From NCBI RefSeq assembly GCF_009914755.1, contig NC_060928.1: a DNA stretch of 64,000 nucleotides, one strand, 5' to 3'. The position numbers and the translations under genes are program-made. This DNA comes from the human T2T-CHM13v2.0 reference genome, Homo sapiens. Below are positions 7,625 to 36,559 of this stretch, piece by piece (the first letter of the stretch is position 1; each line of letters starts with the position of its first letter). A model generated the notes under the pieces. The model was not told the DNA's origin. It searched no databases and saw only the letters and a list, made by a program, of their open reading frames with translations.

Positions 7625-8005
7625 ACTTCCTTCGTGGTACTCAAGGCTTCCTGGGAATTCCTTCGTCGTTCTCAAGGCTGTCCTGGAGCTTCCTTCATGG
7701 TACCCAGGGCTTCCTGGAGCTTCCTTCGTGGTACCCAGGGCCGTCCCGGGGCTTCCTTCATGGTTCTCAGGGCCGTCCCGGGGCTTCCTTCGTGGGGAGC
7801 TTCCTTCGTGGTACCCAGGGCCGTCCCGGGGCTTCCTTCGTGGTTCTCAGGGCCGTCCCGGGGCTTCCTTCGTGGTTCTCAGGGCCGTACTGGGGCTTCC
7901 TTCATGGGGAGCTTCCTTCGTGGTACCCAGGGCCGTCCCGAGGCTTCCTTCGTGGTACCCAGGGCCGTCCCGGGACTTCTTCGTGGTACTCAAGACTGTC
8001 CTGGG
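7625..8005. repeat. GC/CpG-rich minisatellite, 31-32 bp unit (gggcttccttcgtggtacccagggccgtcccg), about 11 units plus two 16-bp half-units
   Basis: The cttc(c)ttc core recurs 13 times. Half-units at ~7784 and ~7896 are 112 bp apart. Confidence 0.95.
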
Positions 8006-10987: not shown

Positions 10988-11689
10988 CTCTATACTTTTT
11001 CTAAACATTTTACATAAAAATCACACCATGCAATATAAGGTCTTTGCGAATACGTTGTTTCCTTACTCTATACTTTTTCTAAACATTTTACATAAAAATC
11101 ACACCATGCAATATAAGGTCTTTGCGAATACGTTGTTTCCTTACTCTATACTTTTTCTAAACATTTTACATAAAAATCACACCATGCAATATAAGGTCTT
11201 TGCGAATACATTGTTTCCTTACTCTATACTTTTTCTAAACATTTTACATAAAAATCACACCATGCAATATAAGGTCTTTGCGAATGCGTTGTTTCCTTAC
11301 TCTATACTTTTTCTAAACATTTTACATAAAAATCACACCATGCAATATAAGGTCTTTGCGAATGCGTTGTTTCCTTACTCTATACTTTTTCTAAACATTT
11401 TACATAAAAATCACACCATGCAATATAAGGTCTTTGCGAATGCGTTGTTTCCTTACTCTATACTTTTTCTAAACATTTTACATAAAAATCACACCATGCA
11501 ATATAAGGTCTTTGCGAATACGTTGTTTCCTTGCTCTATACTTTTTCTAAACATTTTACATAAAAATCACACCATGCAATATAAGGTCTTTGCGAATACG
11601 TTGTTTCCTTACTCTATACTTTTTCTAAACATTTTACATAAAAATCACACCATGCAATATAAGGTCTTTGCGAATACGTTGTTTCCTTA
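10988..11689. repeat. Minisatellite, 78 bp x 9 near-identical copies
   Basis: Unit ctctatactttttctaaacattttacataaaaatcacaccatgcaatataaggtctttgcgaatacgttgtttcctta, with only three variant positions among copies. Confidence 0.98.
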
Positions 11690-13789: not shown

Positions 13790-14205
13790 TGTATAAGTTA
13801 GCTGTTGCTATGTAAAAAACCACCTCAAAACTAGTGGCTTAAAAGAACAACCATTGATTTAGATCCCAACTCCCCGGGTCAGCAATTTGGGATGTGCTTA
13901 GCCAAGCAATTCTCCCCGCCTCAGTCACGTGGCTGAGGTCCGTGCCCAGTCACCCTGGCAGCCCTGCTCCTGGGGTTGACTGGATGTCAGCCGGGCCATG
14001 GGGTCGCTGGGCCATGTGTTTCACATTGCCGTCAGACGAGCCTGAGCTTGTTTCCGTGGCAGCAGGGTGCCAAGAACAGCAAGAGGGAAGACTTTCCCGT
14101 CTCTGTGTCTCTTCTGCTAAGGTCCTTTTGGTGAAAGCAAGTGATGAGGCCAAGACCAGGGTCAACTTGGGAGGGCCTTCCAAAGGCGAATACAGGGACA
14201 CATGA
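13790..14205. mobile_element. MaLR LTR (MLT1-like)
   Basis: Begins tgtataagttagctgttgctatgtaaaaaaccacctcaaaactagtggcttaaaagaacaacc, a typical MLT1 terminus. Confidence 0.7.
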
Positions 14206-14516
14206 ACTCACTGAAGGCATTGCTGGGATCCATGGACCACTGCTTTTACCAACTTGCAGGAGCTGCTTTGAGAGAACCAGGTTTCTGGGCATGAGCCAAA
14301 CCAAAGTTTAAACCAAAGTTTAACAAACCCACTACTTCAAAGTGGTACTCAGTTTTGGTGGTTGGTACTTAGTTTGGCGCAGATTGCCCATAGACAGATC
14401 CCTGCATCTCTACTGATGGCTAGCCCTAGTCATCAAGGACATGGGAAAATAAAATGGTTTCTTACCATTTTCCTGAGGATCACAAAACTTTGAGGAAACC
14501 AGAAGACCCAAAAGTA

Positions 14517-14594
14517 TATCCTCAATAAAACCAATCTGGGACCCCCAACTCCATTCTATCCTCAATAAAACCAATCTGGGACCCCCAACTCCAT
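14517..14594. repeat. 40-bp tandem duplication
   Basis: tatcctcaataaaaccaatctgggacccccaactccat occurs twice identically with period 40. Confidence 0.95.
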
Positions 14595-14931
14595 CCCTTC
14601 CTAACTAACATGATTCACCTTTAGAATGAGACGATCTTAGGGATTTTAGGAGTTCATGGAGGCTCAATATGGCTGCTGTACCTTAGAGCTACATGGAAGG
14701 GGTGGTGCCCTCACCACGACTATGACTAGGCAGCAGGGCATTCCTGGCATTAAGAAGTACTGCTCATCTGTAAATAACTCAACCACACAAACTTGTTTTT
14801 TCCTGGAAAAAAAAAATACAAGCAGGTGCTAGGTTTTTAATGAGAGACAAAGCTTTATTTCCAAATTCACAGTCTTCATACTTCATTATTGCCTTTTCGC
14901 CATGTGATGTGGGTCACACACAATGAACAAC

Positions 14932-15121
14932 TGGCAATTGTTCACACTTTTTTATATTCTGGCAATGAGTGCCAAAAATATTCCTTTCTCTTAGTAGATC
15001 TTTTTAATCAAAAATCTATAGTAAGTAATGCTTTATTTTGAACTAAATCATTTCAATAGGCAAGGTGACAGAACTGTGGCTGAAATCTGCACCATCAAAT
15101 TGACAATCAAATGTCTATTTT
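14932..15121 (+). repeat. Inverted repeat pair 1, left arm
   Basis: Reverse complement of 17677-17861. Manual alignment shows about 11 substitutions and 2 indels. Confidence 0.95.
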
Positions 15122-15706
15122 TTTGTGGTGAGCTTTGTCTCACATCATTGTATGATGTGCTGCCACTGCTGTAATGAAAATACCTGGACTATTTAAGCAG
15201 ATGAGTGGGTGTGGAAGTAGAAGAGAGGAAGGAAGCAGAGTTGTCTGGGCACTGCCCTGTAAGTACAGTTGACCTGGTCTGGAGGGCAGCGCTTTGGTGA
15301 GCAGTCCTAGTTCCTTAGCCCAGAACTTAGGGGTTAAAAAGACTCTGGGCCAGCCAGGAACACCAACCACCATTTACATATAAATTGGGAAAAATCACTG
15401 AGCAAATAGTTTTACAAATACAATTCATTTGTAAATTGGGGTTAATCTGACATGTTTATTTCAGGATATATAGATAAGAGCTGGATTTATATGAAAACTG
15501 ACAGACTTTTTAGCTAAACTAAGCAATTAATTCAATTCCATGCAGAGAGTACAATAGGCTTCTTGTTTTTCTCTTTGATCTGACAAGTGTGTTAGTTGAG
15601 ATGATTATTTTGCAGCATTATGTTGGGATCATGGATAAGGAATTGGACCACAAGAATTGAAGTTATTGCAAGTCCAAATTACTTCAGGCATCAAGCGAGA
15701 GACTAG

Positions 15707-15947
15707 TTTCTCTTCCTTTCTTTCTTTCCTTCTTTCCTTCTTTCTTTCTTTCTTTCTCCCTTCCTTCCTTCCCTCCCTCCCTCCCTTCCTCCTTCCTTCC
15801 TTCCTCTCCTCTCCTCCTCTCTTTTTCTTTTCTTTCTTTCTTTCTTCTCTTTCTCTTTCTTCCTTTCTTTCTTCCTCCCTTCCTTCCTTCCTTCCTCTCC
15901 TCCTCTCTTTCTTTCTTTCCTTTCTTCCTTCCTTCCTTCCTTCCTCT
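15707..15947. repeat. Polypyrimidine microsatellite (CTTT/CCTT/CT mix)
   Basis: About 240 bp of only C and T, adjoining the tail of an antisense L1 fragment. Confidence 0.97.
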
Positions 15948-16073
15948 TATATAAATTTAAGGTATACAAGTGCAATTTTGTTCCATGGATATATTACACA
16001 GTGGTAAAGTCTTGGCTTTTAATGTAACCATCACCTGAATAGTAGACATTGTACCCATTAAGTGATTTCTCAT
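15948..16073 (-). mobile_element. L1 3'-end fragment (L1PB/L1MA-like)
   Basis: tacaagtgcaattttgttccatggatatatt...gtaaccatcacctgaatagtagacattgtacccattaagt. Confidence 0.75.
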
Positions 16074-16074
16074 C

Positions 16075-16383
16075 TTTTTGGGGGCGGGGGACAAGGTCTC
16101 CCTCTGTCTCCCAGGCTGGAGTACAGTGGTATTATCGTAGCTCACTGCAGCCTTGAACTCCTGAGCTCAAGCGACACTCCCACCTCAGGCTCCCGAATAG
16201 CTAGGACTATAGGTGTGTGCCACTGCACCCGGCTAATTTTTATTTTTTATTTATTTTTTTTGATAGAGGCTGGGTCTCTCTATATTGCCCCAGGCTGATC
16301 TTGAACTCCTGGGATCTGGTGATCCTCCCACATCAGCCTTCCAAAGTGTTGAGATTACAGGCGTGAGCCACTGCGCCTGGTCC
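16075..16383 (-). mobile_element. Alu (AluJ-like)
   Basis: tagctcactgcagccttgaactcctgagctcaagcga is a J-type motif. Diverged dimer. Confidence 0.9.
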
Positions 16384-17676
16384 TTGCAGCTGCCAGTATA
16401 TAAAGGAGCTTCTGAGAAATGTCCTTGGTCAGAGACAGGCGCAGCAGCTGCCTTCTGGAATGGTGTTTTAAGTGAGGCACATGCAGGCTTCGGGTTCTGT
16501 TTCATTTGTGGATGAAGCAAGAAAGCTGCTGCCTGACAAGGATGAGTGGCTTCGTTAATTAAATTAGCAGTGGAAATTTTACTGGCTTTAATTAGTGTAA
16601 AATAAGCCACAGAAATAAAGATAGTGATTAAAGCATGCTAATCTGATTAGAATCACAGTGTGCGTGGTTATAGGCAACTTGATATTAGAGAATCACAGAC
16701 TAAGGCCAGGAAGAGGCAGAGTCCTGTTTTAAAGAAGAGGATGGTTGCAGATGGCACAAAAACTTGGAGCTGCTGCGGGATTGCCAAATTGCTTGGGGAG
16801 GATTATGTGTGATAAACGCCATGAAAATCACGGGGCATCGTTGAAAGAGCCATGTTCCTAGGAGGAAGGGCTTTCCGACCATTCACAGTGAAAGGAGCTG
16901 AATCCAACTTCATTGCTTTCCTCAGCAGAGGAAGACTTTACCAGCTGAGTTTCAGCCTCTCAAAATTTCAAACATATGGAAAATCGACAGATTAGAAAGA
17001 TTCTAAGATGTTTGTACTTTCTCTTTCCTGACCCATACAATGAAAGCAGTGTTCATTTAAGACAGTGAGACACAGGATATTCAAGTGTCTGCTGTATGAG
17101 AGAAATGCTGTCTTATTAAATTCAATGCAATACAAATCACATCTTTAAATTATTGCATAAATCCTTTCCAATGCTCAGTTCCTTGGTCTAAGTTATCATA
17201 GAACTGATTTTAGCTTGAGTGTGGTTACGTGGAAACTGTCTATTTTACTCCCACCAGTTCCCAGCCTTCTCTCATTTCCCGGTTTGTAAAATTTCCATTT
17301 GCCCCAAAGTCTGAATGTTAAAACAGGTAGTCTGTCTTTGTCATTTTCTGTGTGTATATACAGTGCATTGTTTATAAGACTGTTATAATACTTAGATATT
17401 CATAAACCAATAGAAACATAACAAAATTTGCTATTAAAACAGAAACCAAAGTTTTCGGAAGACACAAATTCTGAATTAAATAAAAACAGTAGCTTATATT
17501 GACTTAGGTTTCTAGCATTTGGCATTGACTATTTTACATTTTTATTTCTTCAGTATGGGTTTATTGTAAGAATAGATTTTCCTTCAGTTTTGCAAATGAT
17601 GAGATGTAATGAGACATTCACTTTGGGGCCAGTATTATGACAGAAGGTTATGGCTGTTTCAAATCAAATTAGTCAG

Positions 17677-17861
17677 AAAATAGACATTTTATTGTCAATT
17701 TGATGGTATAGATTTCAGCCACAATTCTGTCACCTTGCCTATTGAAATGATTTAGTTCAAAATAAGGCATTACTATAGATTTTTTATTATAAAGATCTAC
17801 TAAGAGAAAAGAACTTTTTGGCACTCATTGCTAGAATATAAAAAAGTGTGAACGATTGCCA
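17677..17861 (-). repeat. Inverted repeat pair 1, right arm
   Basis: Reverse complement of 14932-15121, e.g. ttctgtcaccttgcctattgaaatgatttagttcaaaataa versus ttattttgaactaaatcatttcaataggcaaggtgacagaa. Confidence 0.95.
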
Positions 17862-20417
17862 AAATACAGCTGGATAGAATTTATTCATTCAGTTGTTTAT
17901 ATGGATCTAATACATTAATTATAAATCACAATACAGTTTATGCCCCTCACAAAATACTATGTGAAGTTCAATTTCAGTGGAAGTGCCACGTAAGTGGCAA
18001 CAGAAATAGACTTTTTTCAGCCAACGAGTAGTTGAGTAGCCCAGAAGATGCATTATTTGTTCTGTGTATTAGTTTTTTATAGGAATATATATGATCCTGT
18101 AAATAGATAGACTATTTGTCTGTCTTAGATTTTTAAGAGACATATTAATAATGCTACTTGAAGATTTAGACACTAACTAGGTAGAACATGAAGTCTCTCT
18201 GTAAGTTCAGACTCTTTCTCTTCCTCCCTCGTCCTCAACCTGAAAACCACTGAAAGCCACTAGGTGGGCTGAGCCAGGCATCTGCGAGGTGGGACCAGTG
18301 GCACAGTGCAGGTGCAGCTGCCTGAACAGACCCAGATGGCCTCTGTGCAGGCTGCGGGGCTGTTGAAGCCCTGGGGGCAAGCAGGGTTTTTGCACAGAGA
18401 GAGGCTGGCGGGATGCCTATGGATGTTCCATGGATGGGTGTTGAGTCGGAGCAGGTGAAGGGCCCTCCTTGCAGGAGGCAGGGGTCGGGGTACAGTGATG
18501 GGCGTGGAAGGCTGACTGGAAGAGGGGAAGTCCATAGGTTGGGGAGGGATGACTGTGACCTGGCCTGGAAAGGGGTACTGGAACCTAAGAGAGAGAACAA
18601 GGTTGTTTGAGTAAGGGTGTTGGTGGAGTGACCCTCCACGGGGTATGAACCTGAGAATGGGGTGAGGAGGGCATCTTGGGTGGAACAAAGATGATGGCAT
18701 GGCAGCCCTGCATGGACATTGGAGTGCAAGCAATGGGAGGAGGCACTGGCCCTGGGAGCACAGTGGAGAGGCCAGAAAGGGTGAAGAGAGCATCCCAGTG
18801 AAGACTGGGGGTGGGGACGCATTACGCACTGGGGCAGTGAAGATAAAGAGAGCCGGGTTTCTCACTGTTGGAAATAGGAAAAGGGAAAAAACTGGAGTGA
18901 GCCCTGTGGTATTAGATGGGAATTGCAGGTGTTGGTTTAAACTCATGGTTTTCAGTGTAGAACTATAGACAGGTACCTATGGAAATAACTATTGCTGAAG
19001 ATGCATGTGTGGGTACATATATATGTGGAGTGTGTGCATGCATTTACATGCAGAGATTCACCAGCTCTGTCCGATGAGAGGGTCTGAGAGCGGTGACACA
19101 GGCACTCACACTTAGTCTATTTAGCATCCACATATTGGTATCCAAAATCCAGGCATCAGTCTAAGAACCAAGACCCCTAGGAGAAATCGTTATTCTAGGG
19201 ATGGATCAGGGACCTTACAAAAGAAACACGAGGTATCTTATTGTGCTAAAAATAAGGAGGTACTCAAAGAATGATGAGGACATTTCAAAAGGATATGGAA
19301 ACCAGGTAGCCAAACTGGGGACAATTTTAGCATCAATACAAATGAGAAGAAACCTTTTCCTTACTGTAGAAGACTAGCTGACTAATGTATAAGGAAGGAG
19401 AAAATCATTTGTCAGCCATCACAATAATAATCAGGCAAGAAACATCAATGAATGCTAAAACTAGTGGCAGGAAGTTTGGTGAGGAATGGGATACTGTCTG
19501 AAAGTATCTCTACAAAGGGATAAAGAGTAACTTTACATCTAAGAAACCGACAGACATTAACTTAATCAAATGATCAAGGTGAAAATTACCAAATAGGACA
19601 AATCAAAACTATCTAACACCTGTTTGGGTACCATGAAAACACAACATCATATTTGTAATATTTCTGCCCCAAATGCATAACCTGAATGCAATCATGAGAA
19701 AACATCAGACAAGCCAGAGTGAAGGAAATTCTTTAAAGTAACTGGCCTGTAATTCTCCAAAGTGTCAATGTCATGGAAGCCAAGGAAACCAGCAATGCCA
19801 AGGAAACCAGCAATCAAGGAGTCATTGCTGGAAATGGAAGATTAAAGAGACAGAGTCACCTAGTAGAGTCCTGGATTGCACCCTTTGCTGAAATGCATAA
19901 TCTTGACCCATTGGTGAAACGCGAGTGGTGTAAGTGAATCAGAGGGTAGTAATACATTAATACTAAGTTGTCTAGTTTGATTATTGTACTGGGGCTTTAG
20001 AGGAATTTTTTTTGTAGGAGATGCATTCTAAAATATTTATGGGTAATGATGCAATGGAACAGCAAAACTGTTAGTGAAAGTTTGAAACCATTTCAAGAGA
20101 GAAAAGAAAAAACATCAGGAATCCAAAACATCTGTTTTCTAGAGCTGGCTCTGCTGTGAGCTGGTTATTTGAAGGACGACAAATCACTCCATCTCTTTAT
20201 GTCTCCATTTCTTCATCTCTTAATGTTCCATGGAGGTTAGTTAATTAATTAATACTGCATGTGTCATCGGGCATTTATAATCTAGCCTAATCCTGGGAGA
20301 CTAAGATAAAATACCAAAGCAAGGTTAACATAAGTGCCATAATACAACTCAATGTAATGCAAGATCCTAGATTTGATGATGAATCAGAGAAAATTTTGCT
20401 ATAAAGAACATGATTGG

Positions 20418-20749
<332 letters not shown>

Positions 20750-20887
20750 ATGGTTGGAAAAACTGTACTGTCTTCATGCCAAATTTACCAAATATGATCA
20801 TTGTATTGTGCTTATTTAGGGCAATATTCTTCTCTTAGAAAAATATGCTAAAATATTTGGGGTCATTACTCTCAAATGACTCAGCCT

Positions 20888-20891
20888 ATAC

Positions 20892-20948
<57 letters not shown>
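20888..20948. repeat. (TACA)n(TA)n microsatellite
   Basis: Directly visible. Confidence 0.97.
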
Positions 20949-20949
<1 letters not shown>

Positions 20950-22715
20950 CAAATGTAAAAAAAGTTAACAATTAATGGAAGTAGAATATGGGTATTCTTT
21001 TATGATTTTTACAGTTTTTCTGAAGGTTTGAAACTTTTCAAATTAAAATAGTTAGAAAACATAGTAAGTGGGATAGTAGTGTATATACAGTGCTACAAGA
21101 ATGCAAGGTAATTATATTCAAGATAATGTATCTAATTTTATATGTCTGAGGCCCCACATATAAGCTGTATTGGTGCCAAGCGCCCACAGATTCTGAAGAA
21201 CGGCACTGGCCACACACCTCCACAGGAGACATAAGAGGTGGCCCAGACCAGATTCAGTTCATTAGCCCCTTGCAACCCACGGGAGAAAGAGGGAAGATTA
21301 TTCTGAGGCACAGAGTGGTTAGGTAACTTGTCCAGAGTCACACAGCGAGTAGCAGAGCCAAGGAGTGGAAAATCACACTTTTCCCAGTGCACTTTCTCTG
21401 TTTAACTGCTCCTCTACGCGTCCTGAATAATGATGTGTTGAACTCAGTTTGAATGTTTCATGTTAGATTGTTTTGATTTTTTTCTATTTTTAAAGTTTCA
21501 TTTGGAATAAAAATGTCCAAAGAAACCCAAATATATTTGGATAATTAGTAGTGAAATAGCCAAATTGAAACTTTGCTGATCTGATTACTTCTGCTGCCAT
21601 AATTATTGTGATTTGTACTCCGTAATGATTATAAACGCTTTGTCTGGTCAATGATTTTGAAGACTCTCAGAGCAATCAGATCTATTATGCTGCAACTTGG
21701 ATGGTTAAACAAATTTTAAGTTTTAGAACACATAAAACATACATCTTAAAAGAAACAAAACCCATTCATGCATAATTAGTAGGTCTGAGATTAAAAAATG
21801 AAAAAAATGGTGTTGAGCACACTTTCTCCAAGTCCTCCTCCAAGTGGCTTTTCTCACGGGAACAACATCACAAGAAAGACAGCAGATCCACCTGAGGCAT
21901 GACGAGACAGTTCCTTTTGAGATTAGGGCAATATATGTGTTTTAGAAGATATTCAAAAATAAAATCATAAATATTATCTTTCTAAGAAAGATAAGGGACA
22001 GTCACTGAGTTAGACAAAAATATTTTGGGAAGAAAATGGTGAAAACTGAAGTACCTTTATAAAAATACTGTAAAATGTGAGTGTTTTGTTATTAGAAGAA
22101 AGAGGAAACTGCATAGGTGGAGAGAAGCTGGGCTCTCCACGTGAAGTAATGGTGCTCTTCTGGATTCTGCCATTTCGGGTAAACCAGTCTTGCGTTTTTC
22201 CTCTGATATTTACCTCTTCTCACTGTGAAGATTCAGCCTTCAAAGCAGAACCTGACAGGTTGTGCTCTGTTAATCTGGCCTTCTGGGGGGCTGTCAATAG
22301 CAGTTGAATAATAGCAACGACTCTGTGAGCTCAGGCTGCCCTCTGCTCTCATTCGTCTCAGGCAAGTGGCAGCAGAGAATGCGCATGAGCCATTCAGAAC
22401 ATTTCACAAATAACTTACACTCGGAGTCTTGAATAATGCTACTTTTTTTTTAAGTTTTATTATGTTCATCATGAAGCTTTAAAAAGTCTTTTGCATTTGA
22501 GAGGAAAAATTATCATGTGAAAAATGTCCAGTTCTGCATCTCGATTATTTAAATGGTAATCCAAAGAAGCTCCTTCTCAGAAGCAATATTATTTTACACG
22601 TGCCCTGCCAGAGGCCACTGTGCATTGTCCCAATCAAAAATCTTGAAGGGATTAGTGTAGCGAAGAGTGTGCAATTAACTATTTCTATTTGATATGTTCA
22701 TTTTGATATTTATAA

Positions 22716-23066
<351 letters not shown>

Positions 23067-24915
23067 TCACTTTCTAATCGTTACTTCTCAGTTGTGAGGC
23101 GTGTTAGGGCCTCCACAGACAGGTAAAGGAAAAACGGGTACAGATGGAATCGGGGCTAATGGGATTCTCCTTGAGGAGTGCCGTCTGTACCTGGGAAAGG
23201 CTGATGTTTTGTACAACAGTGTCCGGGAGCAGTGGAAACCCTGGATACAACCGTGGTAGTGTTGCTGTCCCAGAGGTTAACCTGTTGAGTAGGACACGGA
23301 AGCAGAAAGTCACTAGACAGGCGTAAAGATGTGGTTAGAGAATGTTATCTTCTTAATTGCGGGGAGATCTGCCATGAAGTGAGGCCCCAGCTGGCCGCGG
23401 GAGGGTGGAGGGAATATTTCCAGCCCTTGAGGCTGGAGGTTTGTAAATGCTTACTGGATTTGGGGTCAAGATAAACAGGCTACATTTCAGGGTAAAATCC
23501 CAGTCCCAGTGGCAGAAATAGGTTCTCTTGGGAATACAAGGAAAAGGCCAGTCCTCAGGACAAAAAGGGTATGACCGGGCTTTGCTTTACGCATAAGCAG
23601 ACACTGGATTGTAGATACTGGGTTCAGGACAGGAAATAAATCCCCTTGTCCTCCGCGGTAGTCCTGGGATGCACTGTCAGCTGGGACTGGATCAGGGCTT
23701 TGGTTAGACTAGATTTTCAGGTTGAGGACGCTGGGTACCAGGCACAGCAGCAGCAGGCAGGAGCTGATACACGGTAAGATTTCAAGGGTCAGTGAATTAC
23801 CTATTTCTGTCTCAGCCCCCAGAGCCTCACACAGCATTAGCACAAAGTGGATGCTCCAAATGGGTACTGAGTTGACATCAGTGCATCGGACAGCACTTTT
23901 CCCTAAGTATACCTAAGTAAATAGTGCAAATCCATGTCTAGAATGCCCATATTGCCTGTTTAGGATGGTTATAGGATCTACTCAAACTCAATACCTTATT
24001 TCTTCTCCTAGTTTTGAGAATGGTCTTTGAAAATATTTTCTTTTAGTGTTCCACTGAATGCACTCAAATAATAACATTAATTTACTTTAAAATTGAATTA
24101 AACCCCATACACATTTCTCTACACCTGTAGATTGGTTATCAAGAATAAAATTGTGGTGAAGTTTGCCACACTGAAATATTAGCATTATGGAAACAATATC
24201 CAACACATTCAGAGTTAGACCCTGCTCTTATTATTGAAATGAGATATTTTTGATGTATACAAATGATGCTACTGAAAACGATTGGAAGACATGCTCCTTG
24301 AACATTAATAGGAAGATTTGTCCCACGTAACTCATGTTCCCTCAACTCCTCTGCCTTGTGAATGCTGCCTGTGCTTACAGATAGTGATGAATTGTGTCAT
24401 TAAGGGATACTATGTTTCTTTCCACTTGCCCACATACAACAATTCACAATTCATTATAACCAAGAATATGTATCTTCCATGGCATTCCATGTTTCTTCTT
24501 GCATAAGGGTTCTGTTAACTAGGATTTCATTTGCAAAATTTGCACTTTCTAAAAATTTCTTAGTAATTGTGAAGTTTAACCCACTCTTATCGCATATTTG
24601 AAAACCAAAATTCAGAGAACTGGAGTAACTTTGCCTGAGGTCAAACAGTTGCTATTGTGTGGGTCTTGAGATTCTATTTTTCAGACTAGCTTTTTTCACC
24701 TTTTGTATCATCTACCTCGGATTTGCAAACCATGGATAAAATATTTTTTGACAACATATAACTTACTCTTTATAAGTATAATTTAAGATAAATATAATAA
24801 CTTAATAAGTATAATATAATTTATATTATATTGTAAATATTAGAAATATATTATAAATAGATAAAATAAATATTACTCTACAGGTGTAGAATAATTTATA
24901 AACCCTAAGGCAATA

Positions 24916-25140
24916 TAATTTATGAAACCTTAAGGCAATATAATTCCTTGAGGCATTATTAATGATATAAACTTGAATTCAATTCACATGACAATGATGA
25001 CCATTTTAAAATACCTTTCGAAGAGATGCCTGAACAGGGCCAATTGCCGGCTGTGTTGTCACACAAAATATGGCTTAAATAAAGCTAACCTGAGTTTTCA
25101 GAATATTTGAGTATGCTAACATAATGTCTCCAAAGGAAAA
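24916..25140 (+). repeat. Inverted repeat pair 2, left arm
   Basis: Reverse complement of 25824-26048. Manual alignment shows about 10 substitutions and 2 single-base indels over 225 bp. Confidence 0.96.
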
Positions 25141-25823
25141 CTATATATATTTGACAAAATATATATATTTTTCCTATAAAATGTATTATAGATAATATGT
25201 ATATCTGAAACAAATAGATTTGCATGATCCCTACTGTGTACTTTTCCCCCTTTTTGACCGTTTAGTTATCTAAGTCCACTGTCAATTTATATAACAGCAA
25301 CCTAACTATCTGAAATACTCTGCAACAAGATAAGTCCCAATGAAATTAAATACTGAAAGGAAATATTTTTTAAAAGTAGCCAAATAGCAGATGTCTTCTT
25401 AATTTCCACATTTGTGGCATTCTGTGGAGAAATTCTCCAGATAAATGTTTACAATGTTTAATCCTCACATGAAGGTAACTTTGACGTAGACACTTCCCAT
25501 ATTCGTCCATATAAGAAACTGAAAGATTAATGCCACCACTCCAGAAATACTGATTTAATCAACATTTTTATTAAATAAAATTGATTAAAACTGGTCTTCT
25601 TTCTCATGACCTCATCTCTTACAATGTAACTACATTAACATGTATAGGGGCATAGTGTTCTCAATGCTATCTTCAGATCTATATCGTCAATTACTTACTG
25701 ACCATTAAGCTCACTATTAATTTAATACCAACAAATAGAAGAGATATAATTATCAAGCATTATCAATTAATATGTACCTAGGGCCACAGAATCATCAATT
25801 TATAGATCTCTGTTTATCTGTCA

Positions 25824-26048
25824 TTTTCCTTTGGAGACATTATATTAACATACTCAAATATTCTGAAAACTCAGGTTAGCTTTATTTAAAACCATATTTT
25901 GTGTGACAACACAGCCGGCAATTGGCCCTGTTCAGGCATCTCTTTGAAAGTATGTTAAAATGGTCATAATTGTCATGTGAATTGAATTCAAGTTTATGTC
26001 CTTAATAATGCCTCAAGGAATTATATTGCCTTAGGGTTTTATAAATTA
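25824..26048 (-). repeat. Inverted repeat pair 2, right arm
   Basis: ccatattttgtgtgacaacacagccggcaattggccctgttcaggcatctctt is the exact reverse complement of the left-arm core. Confidence 0.96.
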
Positions 26049-27013
26049 CTCTTATAAAGATAAGAAGAAATTAGCTGAAAATAACTGAGCCTATACTATG
26101 GCATACTAAACAATATCTAGCTTATCAGATAGTTAATTTGTGCATATAAAATGAATGTAGAATTATGTATGAGGTTAATTCAACTATCTGTGTCTGTAGC
26201 CATTCATCTACATATTCTAGCTCTTGTTCACATATCCAATACATATTTATTGAGCACCTACTTGACTCCAGGCACATTGCTGGGACAGGGAATATGACAT
26301 GAATGAAACAGACAAGGCGTCTGCCCTCAAAGGTCCTGTTCAGTGAGAGGGGTGTTGCTGACTCCAGTTCCTGCTCCCTTGGGAGGCATCATTCATCAGT
26401 GGAGATATCCTTGCCCCAGAGCTTGGGTCTCCTCAAATGTTGTGCTCTTTGACAGGTCCAAGAATGAACAAAACTGGCCTGGGAATTAAAATAATTTGCC
26501 TTCCCTGGGTGTATATTTACATGTATACGTAGTGGCTAATAAATTAGGTGTTTCAACCTAGACACCCAGGCACAATTGATAACAATAATCAAAGTAAAGT
26601 TTGACACAGACCACAAAAAGAAGATTATTACAAATCTGAACTTTTAACTTCAAAACTGGTTGCATGACTTTTGGGTCTCTTTGCAGGATTCCTTCACCAA
26701 AGATCAAAATGCAAAAGGTGGAGGAAGACTGGAAAGGAAGTTGTGAGGAATGCAGAGAGGATGTGGAGAGGAATGAAGGGTGATGTTCCGCTTAGGGAGT
26801 CATAGCACCTCCACCCGAGGCCACTGAGGGGGGCTTTCAAGGATGCCTTGGCAAATTTGCAGGTAAAGGGCCACAGGGCACTGATGCCACAATCATGCCT
26901 GAGAAAGCCGCAGGGGCTTATGCGGAAGAGAGCTCTGTACCCATGCAAGTTAATAGGAGTGTGACTACTCAGCTCAGAGATAATCATACTGGTTCCACTT
27001 AAAAATGAATTGT

Positions 27014-35469: not shown

Positions 35470-35660
35470 GCACCTCCAGCTCTGGAGCATCTTGGGGTTC
35501 TAGGGGCACCTCCAGCTCCGGAGCATCTTGGGGTTCTAGGGGCACCTCCAGCTCCGGAGCATCTTGGGGTTCTAGGGGCACCTCCAGCTCCGGAGCATCT
35601 TGGGGTTCCAGGGACACCTCCAGCTCCGGAGCATCTTGGGGTTCTCGGGGCACCCAGCTC
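35470..35660. repeat. Minisatellite, 36 bp x ~5.3 (gcacctccagctccggagcatcttggggttctaggg)
   Basis: Direct tandem copies with few variants. Confidence 0.96.
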
Positions 35661-36559
35661 CTGCTTCACTGGATTTGCCGACTCAGGTCATGGGGTGTAA
35701 ATGACCCTGCTCTGCTTCAGCTGCTCTTTGTCCTCCAAATATTTGGGTTTTCTATCTGCACTTTTCTCTTTTCTCGTTGTCTTTGCTCTAGGTGTTAACA
35801 ACTTTTACATTTTATTATTTTCATTTAAAAACATTTGAAGATAGAAGAGATTTGTGTGAGAGAGTAGAGTTTGTTTTTTAACAAGAAGCAAATTTATCCA
35901 TTATTTATTTGGTTAGGAGACTTTAATACACATTTTAACTCATTACAGATCATCACTTAGGATGTGAAAAGTTTTGTGGGACTTATAGGGAATTTTTATG
36001 CTCCCTTAACGGAACAATTCAAATACATAACATCGAGCCCTATAAATCGCATGGCTTTTCAAGTAACCATAAGATATTTATATAATGTTTCCATACTCAG
36101 GAACACAGACAAAACTTCAATGTTTTCTGAAACAGAAATAGCATACACTACTCCTCTAAACATGATGAAAACAATCTATAACCAAAAGAAAAACATTACC
36201 TGAATTCTTATTATTTGTATGAATGACAATGAAAAAAATAGTAAGAAACATAGAGAAAATAAAATAATTATTGGAGTAGCTTTGGGTGAACTAACGCAAA
36301 CGTAAAAGTTGATAAAATGGATGATTTTCATGAAAAACATCAATTAGAATAATAAAATAAATATATTCAATTTTGACCAAATTCAAACACTACAAATAAA
36401 AGCTCTTTTCCACTAAAATCAAGTCCAGTTTCCCTCTTTTTAATAATAAAATATTACTAATTTAATGGTTTCTTCAATGATTTATAGACTATATGTAACA
36501 TTTAATTCCTAATATTTTTATAATAAATTGTGGTCCATGTTTCTTTAGTGGGATGGCTG

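What the first reader, a model, noticed from the sequence alone, without database searches (positions are those of the whole stretch)
14932..17861. Second unique-sequence inverted repeat (~185-190 bp, ~94%) enclosing a 2.55-kb spacer
Seen: 14932-15121 and 17677-17861 are reverse complements (about 11 substitutions, a 1-bp and a 4-bp indel). The spacer holds an old AluJ, an L1 fragment, a 240-bp pyrimidine tract and a homeodomain-motif cluster. The arms look more alike than the age of the enclosed AluJ would suggest. Inference: either a younger inversion with duplicated junctions, or older arms homogenised by gene conversion. Candidate invertible segment.
Basis: partly seen in the sequence, partly recalled or inferred. 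Interest (0 to 1): 0.75.

Follow-up and report, generated by a model that had tools for sequence, protein, structure and literature searches.

The report
Old local inverted duplication at 4q35
A 190-base stretch of single-copy human DNA lies 2.6 kb from a backwards, 94%-matching copy of itself; it is likely the fossil of an ordinary copy-and-paste replication or repair slip in a primate ancestor, and likely not a segment that flips.

Summary
The repeat is real. Arms 14932-15121 and 17677-17861 differ by 11 substitutions in 185 aligned bases plus 1-bp and 4-bp indels. No third copy was found in CHM13.

The paradox with the old Alu disappears if the duplication came after the Alu. The anatomy (190 bp, inverted, 2.55 kb away, no poly(A) or target-site duplication) fits the commonest human 'inversion' class, the local inverted duplication (Sudmant 2015; Schloissnig 2025).

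GC continuity and short fold-back scars at both ends of the left arm weakly point to the right arm as donor and the left arm as pasted copy, with no flip of the spacer. I found no conversion patch, no decayed halo and no strand-biased G-U pairing. The locus did not turn up in three human inversion catalogues, a human-macaque list or a human-chimpanzee list. Similar pairs with shorter spacers occurred in 2 of 20 random 10-kb stretches.

Divergence of about 0.06 suggests a fixed event roughly 15-45 Myr old. No primate genomes were available, so an inversion older than the human-macaque split is not excluded. Ordinary; low interest.

The parts
14932..15121 (+). Left arm (190 bp); inferred pasted copy
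   Evidence: GC 0.305 between flanks of 0.41 and 0.50 (250-bp flanks); scars at both ends.
17677..17861 (-). Right arm (185 bp); inferred donor
   Evidence: GC 0.286 inside a continuous AT-rich block, flanks 0.31 and 0.32; no hairpin or long local template at either end.
14924..14944 (.). 7-bp stem, 7-nt loop hairpin spanning the outer junction of the left arm (possible fold-back scar)
   Evidence: 2.8-3.0% of background positions are spanned by a stem of 7 or more; post hoc.
15131..15160 (.). Inner junction of the left arm: 15-nt stretch (14/15) that is an inverted match to about 14840-14854, and an overlapping short hairpin
   Evidence: background 7.5% of 120 random sites for a template of 15 or more, 13% for a stem of 7 or more within 40 bp; post hoc.
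15122..17676 (.). Spacer, 2555 bp; no transposase-like frame
   Evidence: all 10 stop-to-stop frames of 70 aa or more overlap the pyrimidine tract or the Alu or are 77-128 aa; judged by eye, not scanned against Pfam.
15712..15945 (.). Pyrimidine (CTTC/CTTT) tract
15947..16074 (-). Old dispersed-repeat fragment (L1 3' end and its strand by recalled resemblance)
16088..16385 (-). Old Alu
16540..16690 (.). TAAT/ATTA-rich cluster, including a TAAT-3-ATTA palindrome; no link to the arms shown
   Evidence: sequence.
24916..26048 (.). Neighbouring inverted repeat (arms 24916-25140 and 25824-26048, 10 substitutions in 224, spacer 683 bp); used as comparison

Best explanation
The two arms are an inverted, 94%-identical pair with no other copy found in the genome, likely made by one old local inverted duplication in which the right arm was likely copied backwards into a site 2.55 kb upstream while the spacer likely kept its orientation. 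Shown: arm geometry, divergence, no target-site duplication or poly(A) tail, sharp arm ends. Inferred: a stalled fork or broken end at about 14931 switched template to the opposite strand near 17861, copied about 190 bases and rejoined at about 15122 (FoSTeS/MMBIR-type or synthesis-dependent end joining), leaving short fold-back scars. The allele then became fixed and both copies drifted neutrally. Divergence is 0.062 (interval about 0.03-0.11), near the human-macaque distance (recalled, about 0.06-0.065), so roughly 15-45 Myr. With a longest perfect run of 41 bp, the pair is predicted to be a poor substrate for recombination today. No function is predicted.
For: Size and distance fit the class: 54% of 229 characterised human inversion sites were inverted duplications, nearly all under 1 kb and inserted within 5 kb of the other copy (PMC4617611, passages); 277 such events had a median of 284 bp, mostly with 1-15 bp microhomology (PMC12350158, passages). 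No target-site duplication of 4 bp or more around the whole element or the left arm. The GC-continuity test of four junction histories gave 'right donor, pasted left' relative likelihood 0.36, 0.57 and 0.55 at three flank sizes, against 0.13-0.22 for each other model. Scars lie at the outer and inner ends of the left arm and at neither end of the right arm; only this model predicts that pattern. No human-macaque inversion is listed between hg38 chr4:186.08 and 187.83 Mb among 135 chr4 rows that include several of 2.2-2.5 kb (PMC11092980 Table S7). Analogues occurred in 2 of 20 random 10-kb stretches.
Against: No pre-insertion allele or orthologue was seen, so neither the empty site nor the spacer's ancestral orientation is shown. 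The GC test is weak (about 2-4 fold; only 0.36 at 150-bp flanks). The scar tests were chosen after I saw the junctions, and the outer hairpin includes 14939, where the arms differ, so it may be younger than the event. The neighbouring repeat also has a 7-bp hairpin at the outer end of its right arm, so such hairpins do not mark only pasted copies. Both random analogues have spacers under 400 bp; 0 of 20 had a spacer over 2 kb. Microhomology could not be read without the ancestral allele.
Confidence: 0.7

Rival explanations
1. One old inversion of the spacer (staggered break or double template switch) that duplicated 190 bp at its breakpoints and became fixed before the human-macaque split.
For: It gives the same present-day anatomy. 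The divergence interval (0.03-0.11) allows a date before that split, to which a human-macaque list is blind. The two inversion models together keep relative likelihood 0.29-0.42 in the GC test.
Against: It predicts new junctions at outer-left plus inner-right, or inner-left plus outer-right; the scars are at outer-left plus inner-left. No such inversion is in the human-macaque or human-chimpanzee lists (hg17 position from recalled offsets).
Confidence: 0.15
2. Much older arms kept alike by gene conversion, possibly with recurrent flipping of the spacer, as in InvFEST NAHR inversions.
For: Identity is above the 90% seen at NAHR inversions. Validated inversions with breakpoint repeats start at 140 bp (PMC13629690). 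In yeast, widely spaced divergent repeats still pair in long single-stranded DNA (PMC10164571, abstract).
Against: Differences are spread evenly: longest identical run 41 bp, P=0.45. No decayed halo outside (p about 0.21) or inside (p about 0.25) the arms. The 24 NAHR inversions of PMC6748972 have repeats of 654 bp to 24.2 kb. Absent from 10 chr4 rows of PMC10150506 Table S1 and from the 612 candidates of PMC13629690 (no coordinate starting 1870).
Confidence: 0.07
3. Terminal inverted repeats of an unrecognised 2.9-kb DNA transposon, or two copies of an old low-copy repeat.
For: The overall shape resembles an element with terminal repeats, and the genome search is not exhaustive.
Against: No target-site duplication; no third copy of arm or flanks where the same search saw an old transposon family; no transposase-like frame.
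Confidence: 0.03
4. A selected pairing element (RNA duplex or DNA loop anchor) that brackets a homeodomain-site enhancer.
For: A TAAT/ATTA cluster lies in the spacer (2 of 608 GC-matched windows, post hoc).
Against: G-U-compatible changes split 4 to 4 between the strands. No Rfam match of E<=1 on the arms. No annotated transcript or enhancer row overlaps the element in the gene table supplied with the finding.
Confidence: 0.03

Closest known systems
Human local inverted duplications ('inv-dup', Sudmant 2015 PMC4617611; SVAN inverted duplications, Schloissnig 2025 PMC12350158)
   Same: Copy under 1 kb, inverted, within 5 kb of its source, no retrotransposition marks; 190 bp against a median of 284 bp.
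   Different: Those are present-day polymorphisms. This pair is 6% diverged and so likely fixed and old; the empty allele and the microhomology were not seen.
NAHR-mediated recurrent inversions (InvFEST; Giner-Delgado 2019 PMC6748972; Moreira-Pinhal 2026 PMC13629690)
   Same: A kilobase-scale segment between inverted repeats of over 90% identity.
   Different: The arms are shorter than the 654 bp-24.2 kb repeats of the 24 NAHR cases, and no second orientation is listed.
Synthesis-dependent microhomology-mediated end joining / polymerase-theta junctions (PMC2943611, PMC5728401; search listing only)
   Same: Short inverted or hairpin-forming pieces next to a junction.
   Different: Those templated pieces are short (recalled). 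Here they would be side scars of a 190-bp copy, and the evidence is post hoc.

Membership tests
Local inverted duplication (inv-dup) | Duplicated stretch under 1 kb in inverted orientation | tested here: met
   190/185 bp, reverse complement.
Local inverted duplication (inv-dup) | Copy within about 5 kb of the other copy | tested here: met
   Spacer 2555 bp.
Local inverted duplication (inv-dup) | No retrotransposition marks (poly(A), target-site duplication) | tested here: met
   No flanking direct repeat of 4 bp or more around the left arm or the whole element; only AAAA at a shifted right-arm boundary. No A-tail in the sequence.
Local inverted duplication (inv-dup) | One arm is an insertion with both junctions new; spacer not inverted | tested here: inconclusive
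   GC continuity 2-4 fold in favour; scars on both ends of the left arm; absent from the human-macaque list; no ancestral allele seen.
Local inverted duplication (inv-dup) | 1-15 bp microhomology at the junctions | not testable with these tools
   Needs the pre-insertion allele; no related genome is held.
NAHR-mediated recurrent inversion | Inverted repeats over 90% identical at both breakpoints | tested here: met
   91.6% with gaps, 94.1% without.
NAHR-mediated recurrent inversion | Repeat length in the range of validated cases | tested here: inconclusive
   Below 654 bp, the smallest of 24 NAHR cases; above 140 bp, the smallest of 58 validated repeat-flanked inversions.
NAHR-mediated recurrent inversion | Both orientations present in humans or primates | tested here: inconclusive
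   Not listed in five tables searched, but no haplotypes or genomes were aligned, and one supplement was cut when stored.
NAHR-mediated recurrent inversion | Gene conversion between the arms | tested here: inconclusive
   No patch (P=0.45) and no halo; two sequences cannot exclude whole-arm conversion.
DNA transposon with terminal inverted repeats | Target-site duplication | tested here: not met
   (4 bp or more); no TA dinucleotide on both sides.
DNA transposon with terminal inverted repeats | Further copies in the genome | tested here: not met
   2 matches only; control family detected.
Segmental duplication | At least 1 kb at 90% identity or more (1-kb limit recalled) | tested here: not met
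   190 bp.

The most novel reading that the evidence does not exclude
This repeat and its neighbour 7 kb away (24916-26048) are the fossil of one multi-switch replication accident in an anthropoid ancestor. Both appear to have the left arm pasted from a right-hand donor, and their divergences do not differ (11/185 against 10/224, P=0.51). More widely, such pairs at about 1 per 100-200 kb would form an unmasked, datable record of local inverted duplication in the human genome. A bolder variant, that the 190-bp arms still flip the spacer in some lineage, is not excluded (probability about 0.04).
Probability: 0.12. Interest if true: 0.4.

Novelty: new member of a known kind. Interest (0 to 1): 0.13.

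Why it matters
It matters little as a single locus. It is intergenic, overlaps no annotated gene or enhancer, and fits a common mutation class. Its use is as a caution and a marker: short unique-sequence inverted repeats in the human genome need not mark an inversion, and such pairs can produce false inversion calls in alignments. If a genome-wide census confirmed about 1 per 100-200 kb, their divergence would date the rate of local inverted duplication over primate history.

Tried and rejected
1. A degenerate older hairpin formed by the two flanks of the left arm looked plausible by eye but was not significant (score 26, p about 0.26; fold z -1.53).
2. Homology among the four flanks in either orientation: 0 of 12 comparisons reached p<0.05.
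3. Old repeats spanning the junctions, which could have fixed the ancestral order: the flank searches returned only the two arms.
4. Rfam: 19 matches at E<=1 in 14000-27000, all below gathering score, none on the arms.
5. A bacterial promoter/terminator scan was irrelevant and is not used.
6. Regional hotspot: 2 pairs in the window against 0-2 in the background is not significant (one-sided P 0.09-0.25). The planned 4q35 sample and a larger genome-wide sample could not be fetched, so the background is 20 stretches only.
7. The ape inversion catalogue (PMC12058530, passages) covers events over 10 kb and cannot speak to a 2.5-kb spacer; its supplement was not searched.
8. Papers naming LOC102723906 or LINC02374 (7 listed of 8): two were read in passages (PMC8327921, PMC9926135) and concern a VNTR and a GWAS SNP, not this repeat.
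9. Earlier scan findings were not available.

Full report
1. Observation. The arms at 14932-15121 and 17677-17861 are reverse complements around a 2555-bp spacer. They differ by 11 substitutions (8 transitions, 3 transversions) in 185 aligned columns, one 1-bp indel and one 4-bp indel. Identity drops to background at both ends. A self-comparison of the window shows only one other long non-repeat inverted pair, 24916-25140 / 25824-26048, with 10 substitutions in 224 and a 683-bp spacer. Genome searches with the arm and with both flanking contexts returned only the two arms. The tool is not exhaustive, but it listed 39 other-locus hits at 70-87% for an old transposon-like element used as a control.

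2. The age paradox. An Alu older than the arms is only odd if the arms had to exist first. A duplication after the Alu inserted removes the problem. Corrected divergence is 0.062, with a Poisson interval on the raw value of 0.030-0.106. The human-macaque neutral distance is about 0.06-0.065 (recalled) and the split about 25 Myr (PMC7605249, search listing). The event therefore falls at roughly 15-45 Myr, if there was no conversion.

3. Conversion or selection on pairing. The longest identical run is 41 bp; random placement of 13 differences reaches this with P=0.45. There is no weaker homology beyond the arms, outside (p about 0.21) or inside (p about 0.25). Transitions that would keep a G-U pair split 4 to 4 between strands. 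Rfam gave nothing on the arms. None of this excludes conversion of a whole arm long ago.

4. Which history? Four histories give the same picture today: right arm copied left, left arm copied right, or two kinds of inversion with a duplicated end. They differ in which junctions are new. GC content in 250-bp flanks is 0.41 | 0.305 | 0.50 around the left arm and 0.31 | 0.286 | 0.32 around the right arm. Calibrated on the window and 20 background stretches, 'right donor, pasted left' gets relative likelihood 0.36, 0.57 and 0.55 at flanks of 150, 250 and 400 bp; each other model gets 0.13-0.22. A 7-bp hairpin spans the outer-left junction (background about 3%). A second hairpin and a 15-nt inverted local match lie just inside the inner-left junction (background 13% and 7.5%). 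Neither right junction has such features. Only the pasted-left model predicts scars at both left junctions. Against this: the tests were post hoc, the GC signal is weak, and the neighbouring repeat has a 7-bp hairpin at a right-arm junction as well. No target-site duplication or transposase-like frame was found.

5. Is it known to invert? I placed the locus at about hg38 chr4:187.07 Mb from the HsInv0266 offset of about 3.348 Mb (error of some kb possible). PMC10150506 (supplement only): none of 10 chr4 rows of Table S1 overlaps. PMC13629690 (abstract, sections 4 and 13, supplement search): no coordinate starting 1870 among 612 repeat-flanked candidates merged from 1528 calls in 195 people. 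PMC12350158 (passages, supplement search): no chr4 row at the expected CHM13 or hg38 prefixes, but the table file was cut when stored, so this is weak. PMC11092980 (passages, section 34, Table S7 rows): of 1972 human-macaque inversions, 135 are on chr4 and none lies between 186.08 and 187.83 Mb; events of 2.2-2.5 kb are listed (I saw chr4 rows 1 and 108-135). PMC1270012 (passages, Table S1 search): of 1576 human-chimpanzee calls, the only chr4 entry with prefix 1881-1884 is a 54-bp one (hg17 position from recalled offsets). These lists are incomplete by nature and blind to events older than the human-macaque split. The PMC12058530 catalogue is limited to events over 10 kb. Supplements of bioRxiv preprints, such as the 729-inversion set (search listing), could not be seen, though that study's candidates feed the 612 set. 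Nine literature searches showed no title or abstract on this repeat; none could search by coordinate.

6. How common? In 20 random 10-kb stretches, 2 held a comparable pair. L011 has a 187-bp, 88% inverted copy that starts inside a MER5A-like element (name recalled) and runs into unique DNA, spacer about 191 bp. L018 has a 181-bp partial Alu 90% identical to its inverted neighbour, against at most 84.9% for the other 62 hits, with AT-rich filler at both ends; this one is less certain. The rate is 0.5-1.4 per 100 kb with wide intervals. Two pairs in this window are not a significant excess (P 0.09-0.25). Neither analogue has a spacer over 400 bp.

7. Comparison with known kinds. It works like, and on every feature testable here fits, the local inverted duplication: 54% of 229 characterised inversion sites, nearly all under 1 kb and within 5 kb of the other copy, not typically tied to retrotransposition (PMC4617611, passages); 277 events of median 284 bp, mostly with 1-15 bp microhomology (PMC12350158). 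It would be a fixed, aged example. It is a poor fit to NAHR inversions, whose 24 cases had repeats of 654 bp to 24.2 kb (PMC6748972, passages), though validated repeat-flanked inversions start at 140 bp.

8. Verdict. A real feature with an ordinary origin. Best explanation: an old local inverted duplication without inversion, 0.70. Rivals: ancient inversion 0.15, conversion or toggling 0.07, transposon 0.03, selected pairing 0.03. The decisive test, alignment to outgroup primates, could not be run because no related genome was held. Interest 0.13.

Noticed in passing
window 24780-26058: Second single-locus inverted repeat (arms 24916-25140, 25824-26048; 95.5% without gaps). Its left arm has a 25-bp tandem duplication at the outer edge (24891-24945), an 11-bp-stem palindrome at the inner edge (25142-25167) and AT-rich filler, which suggests that the left arm is the pasted copy here too.
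   Followed up: partly
window 16540-16690: Dense TAAT/ATTA cluster (9 in 151 bp; 2 of 608 GC-matched windows) with a TAAT-3-ATTA palindrome of the paired-class homeodomain dimer type (recalled). Possible unannotated enhancer; conservation untested.
   Followed up: partly
window 14517-14594: Perfect 40-bp-period tandem duplication, 340 bp upstream of the left arm; young, possibly polymorphic.
   Followed up: no
window 10988-11689: 78-bp x 9 tandem array at 99% identity; further arrays at 7626-7992 and 35470-35661.
   Followed up: no
L011:9400-10000 (chr18:55,142,504-55,143,067): 187-bp, 88% local inverted duplication that truncates a MER5A-like element, so donor and copy can be told apart from the human sequence alone.
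   Followed up: partly
L018:6689-7385: Partial Alu 90% identical to an inverted full Alu 335 bp away, flanked by AT-rich filler; likely a local inverted copy.
   Followed up: partly
L014:8112-8231: 120-bp imperfect palindrome (85%) with no match in the other stretches sampled.
   Followed up: no
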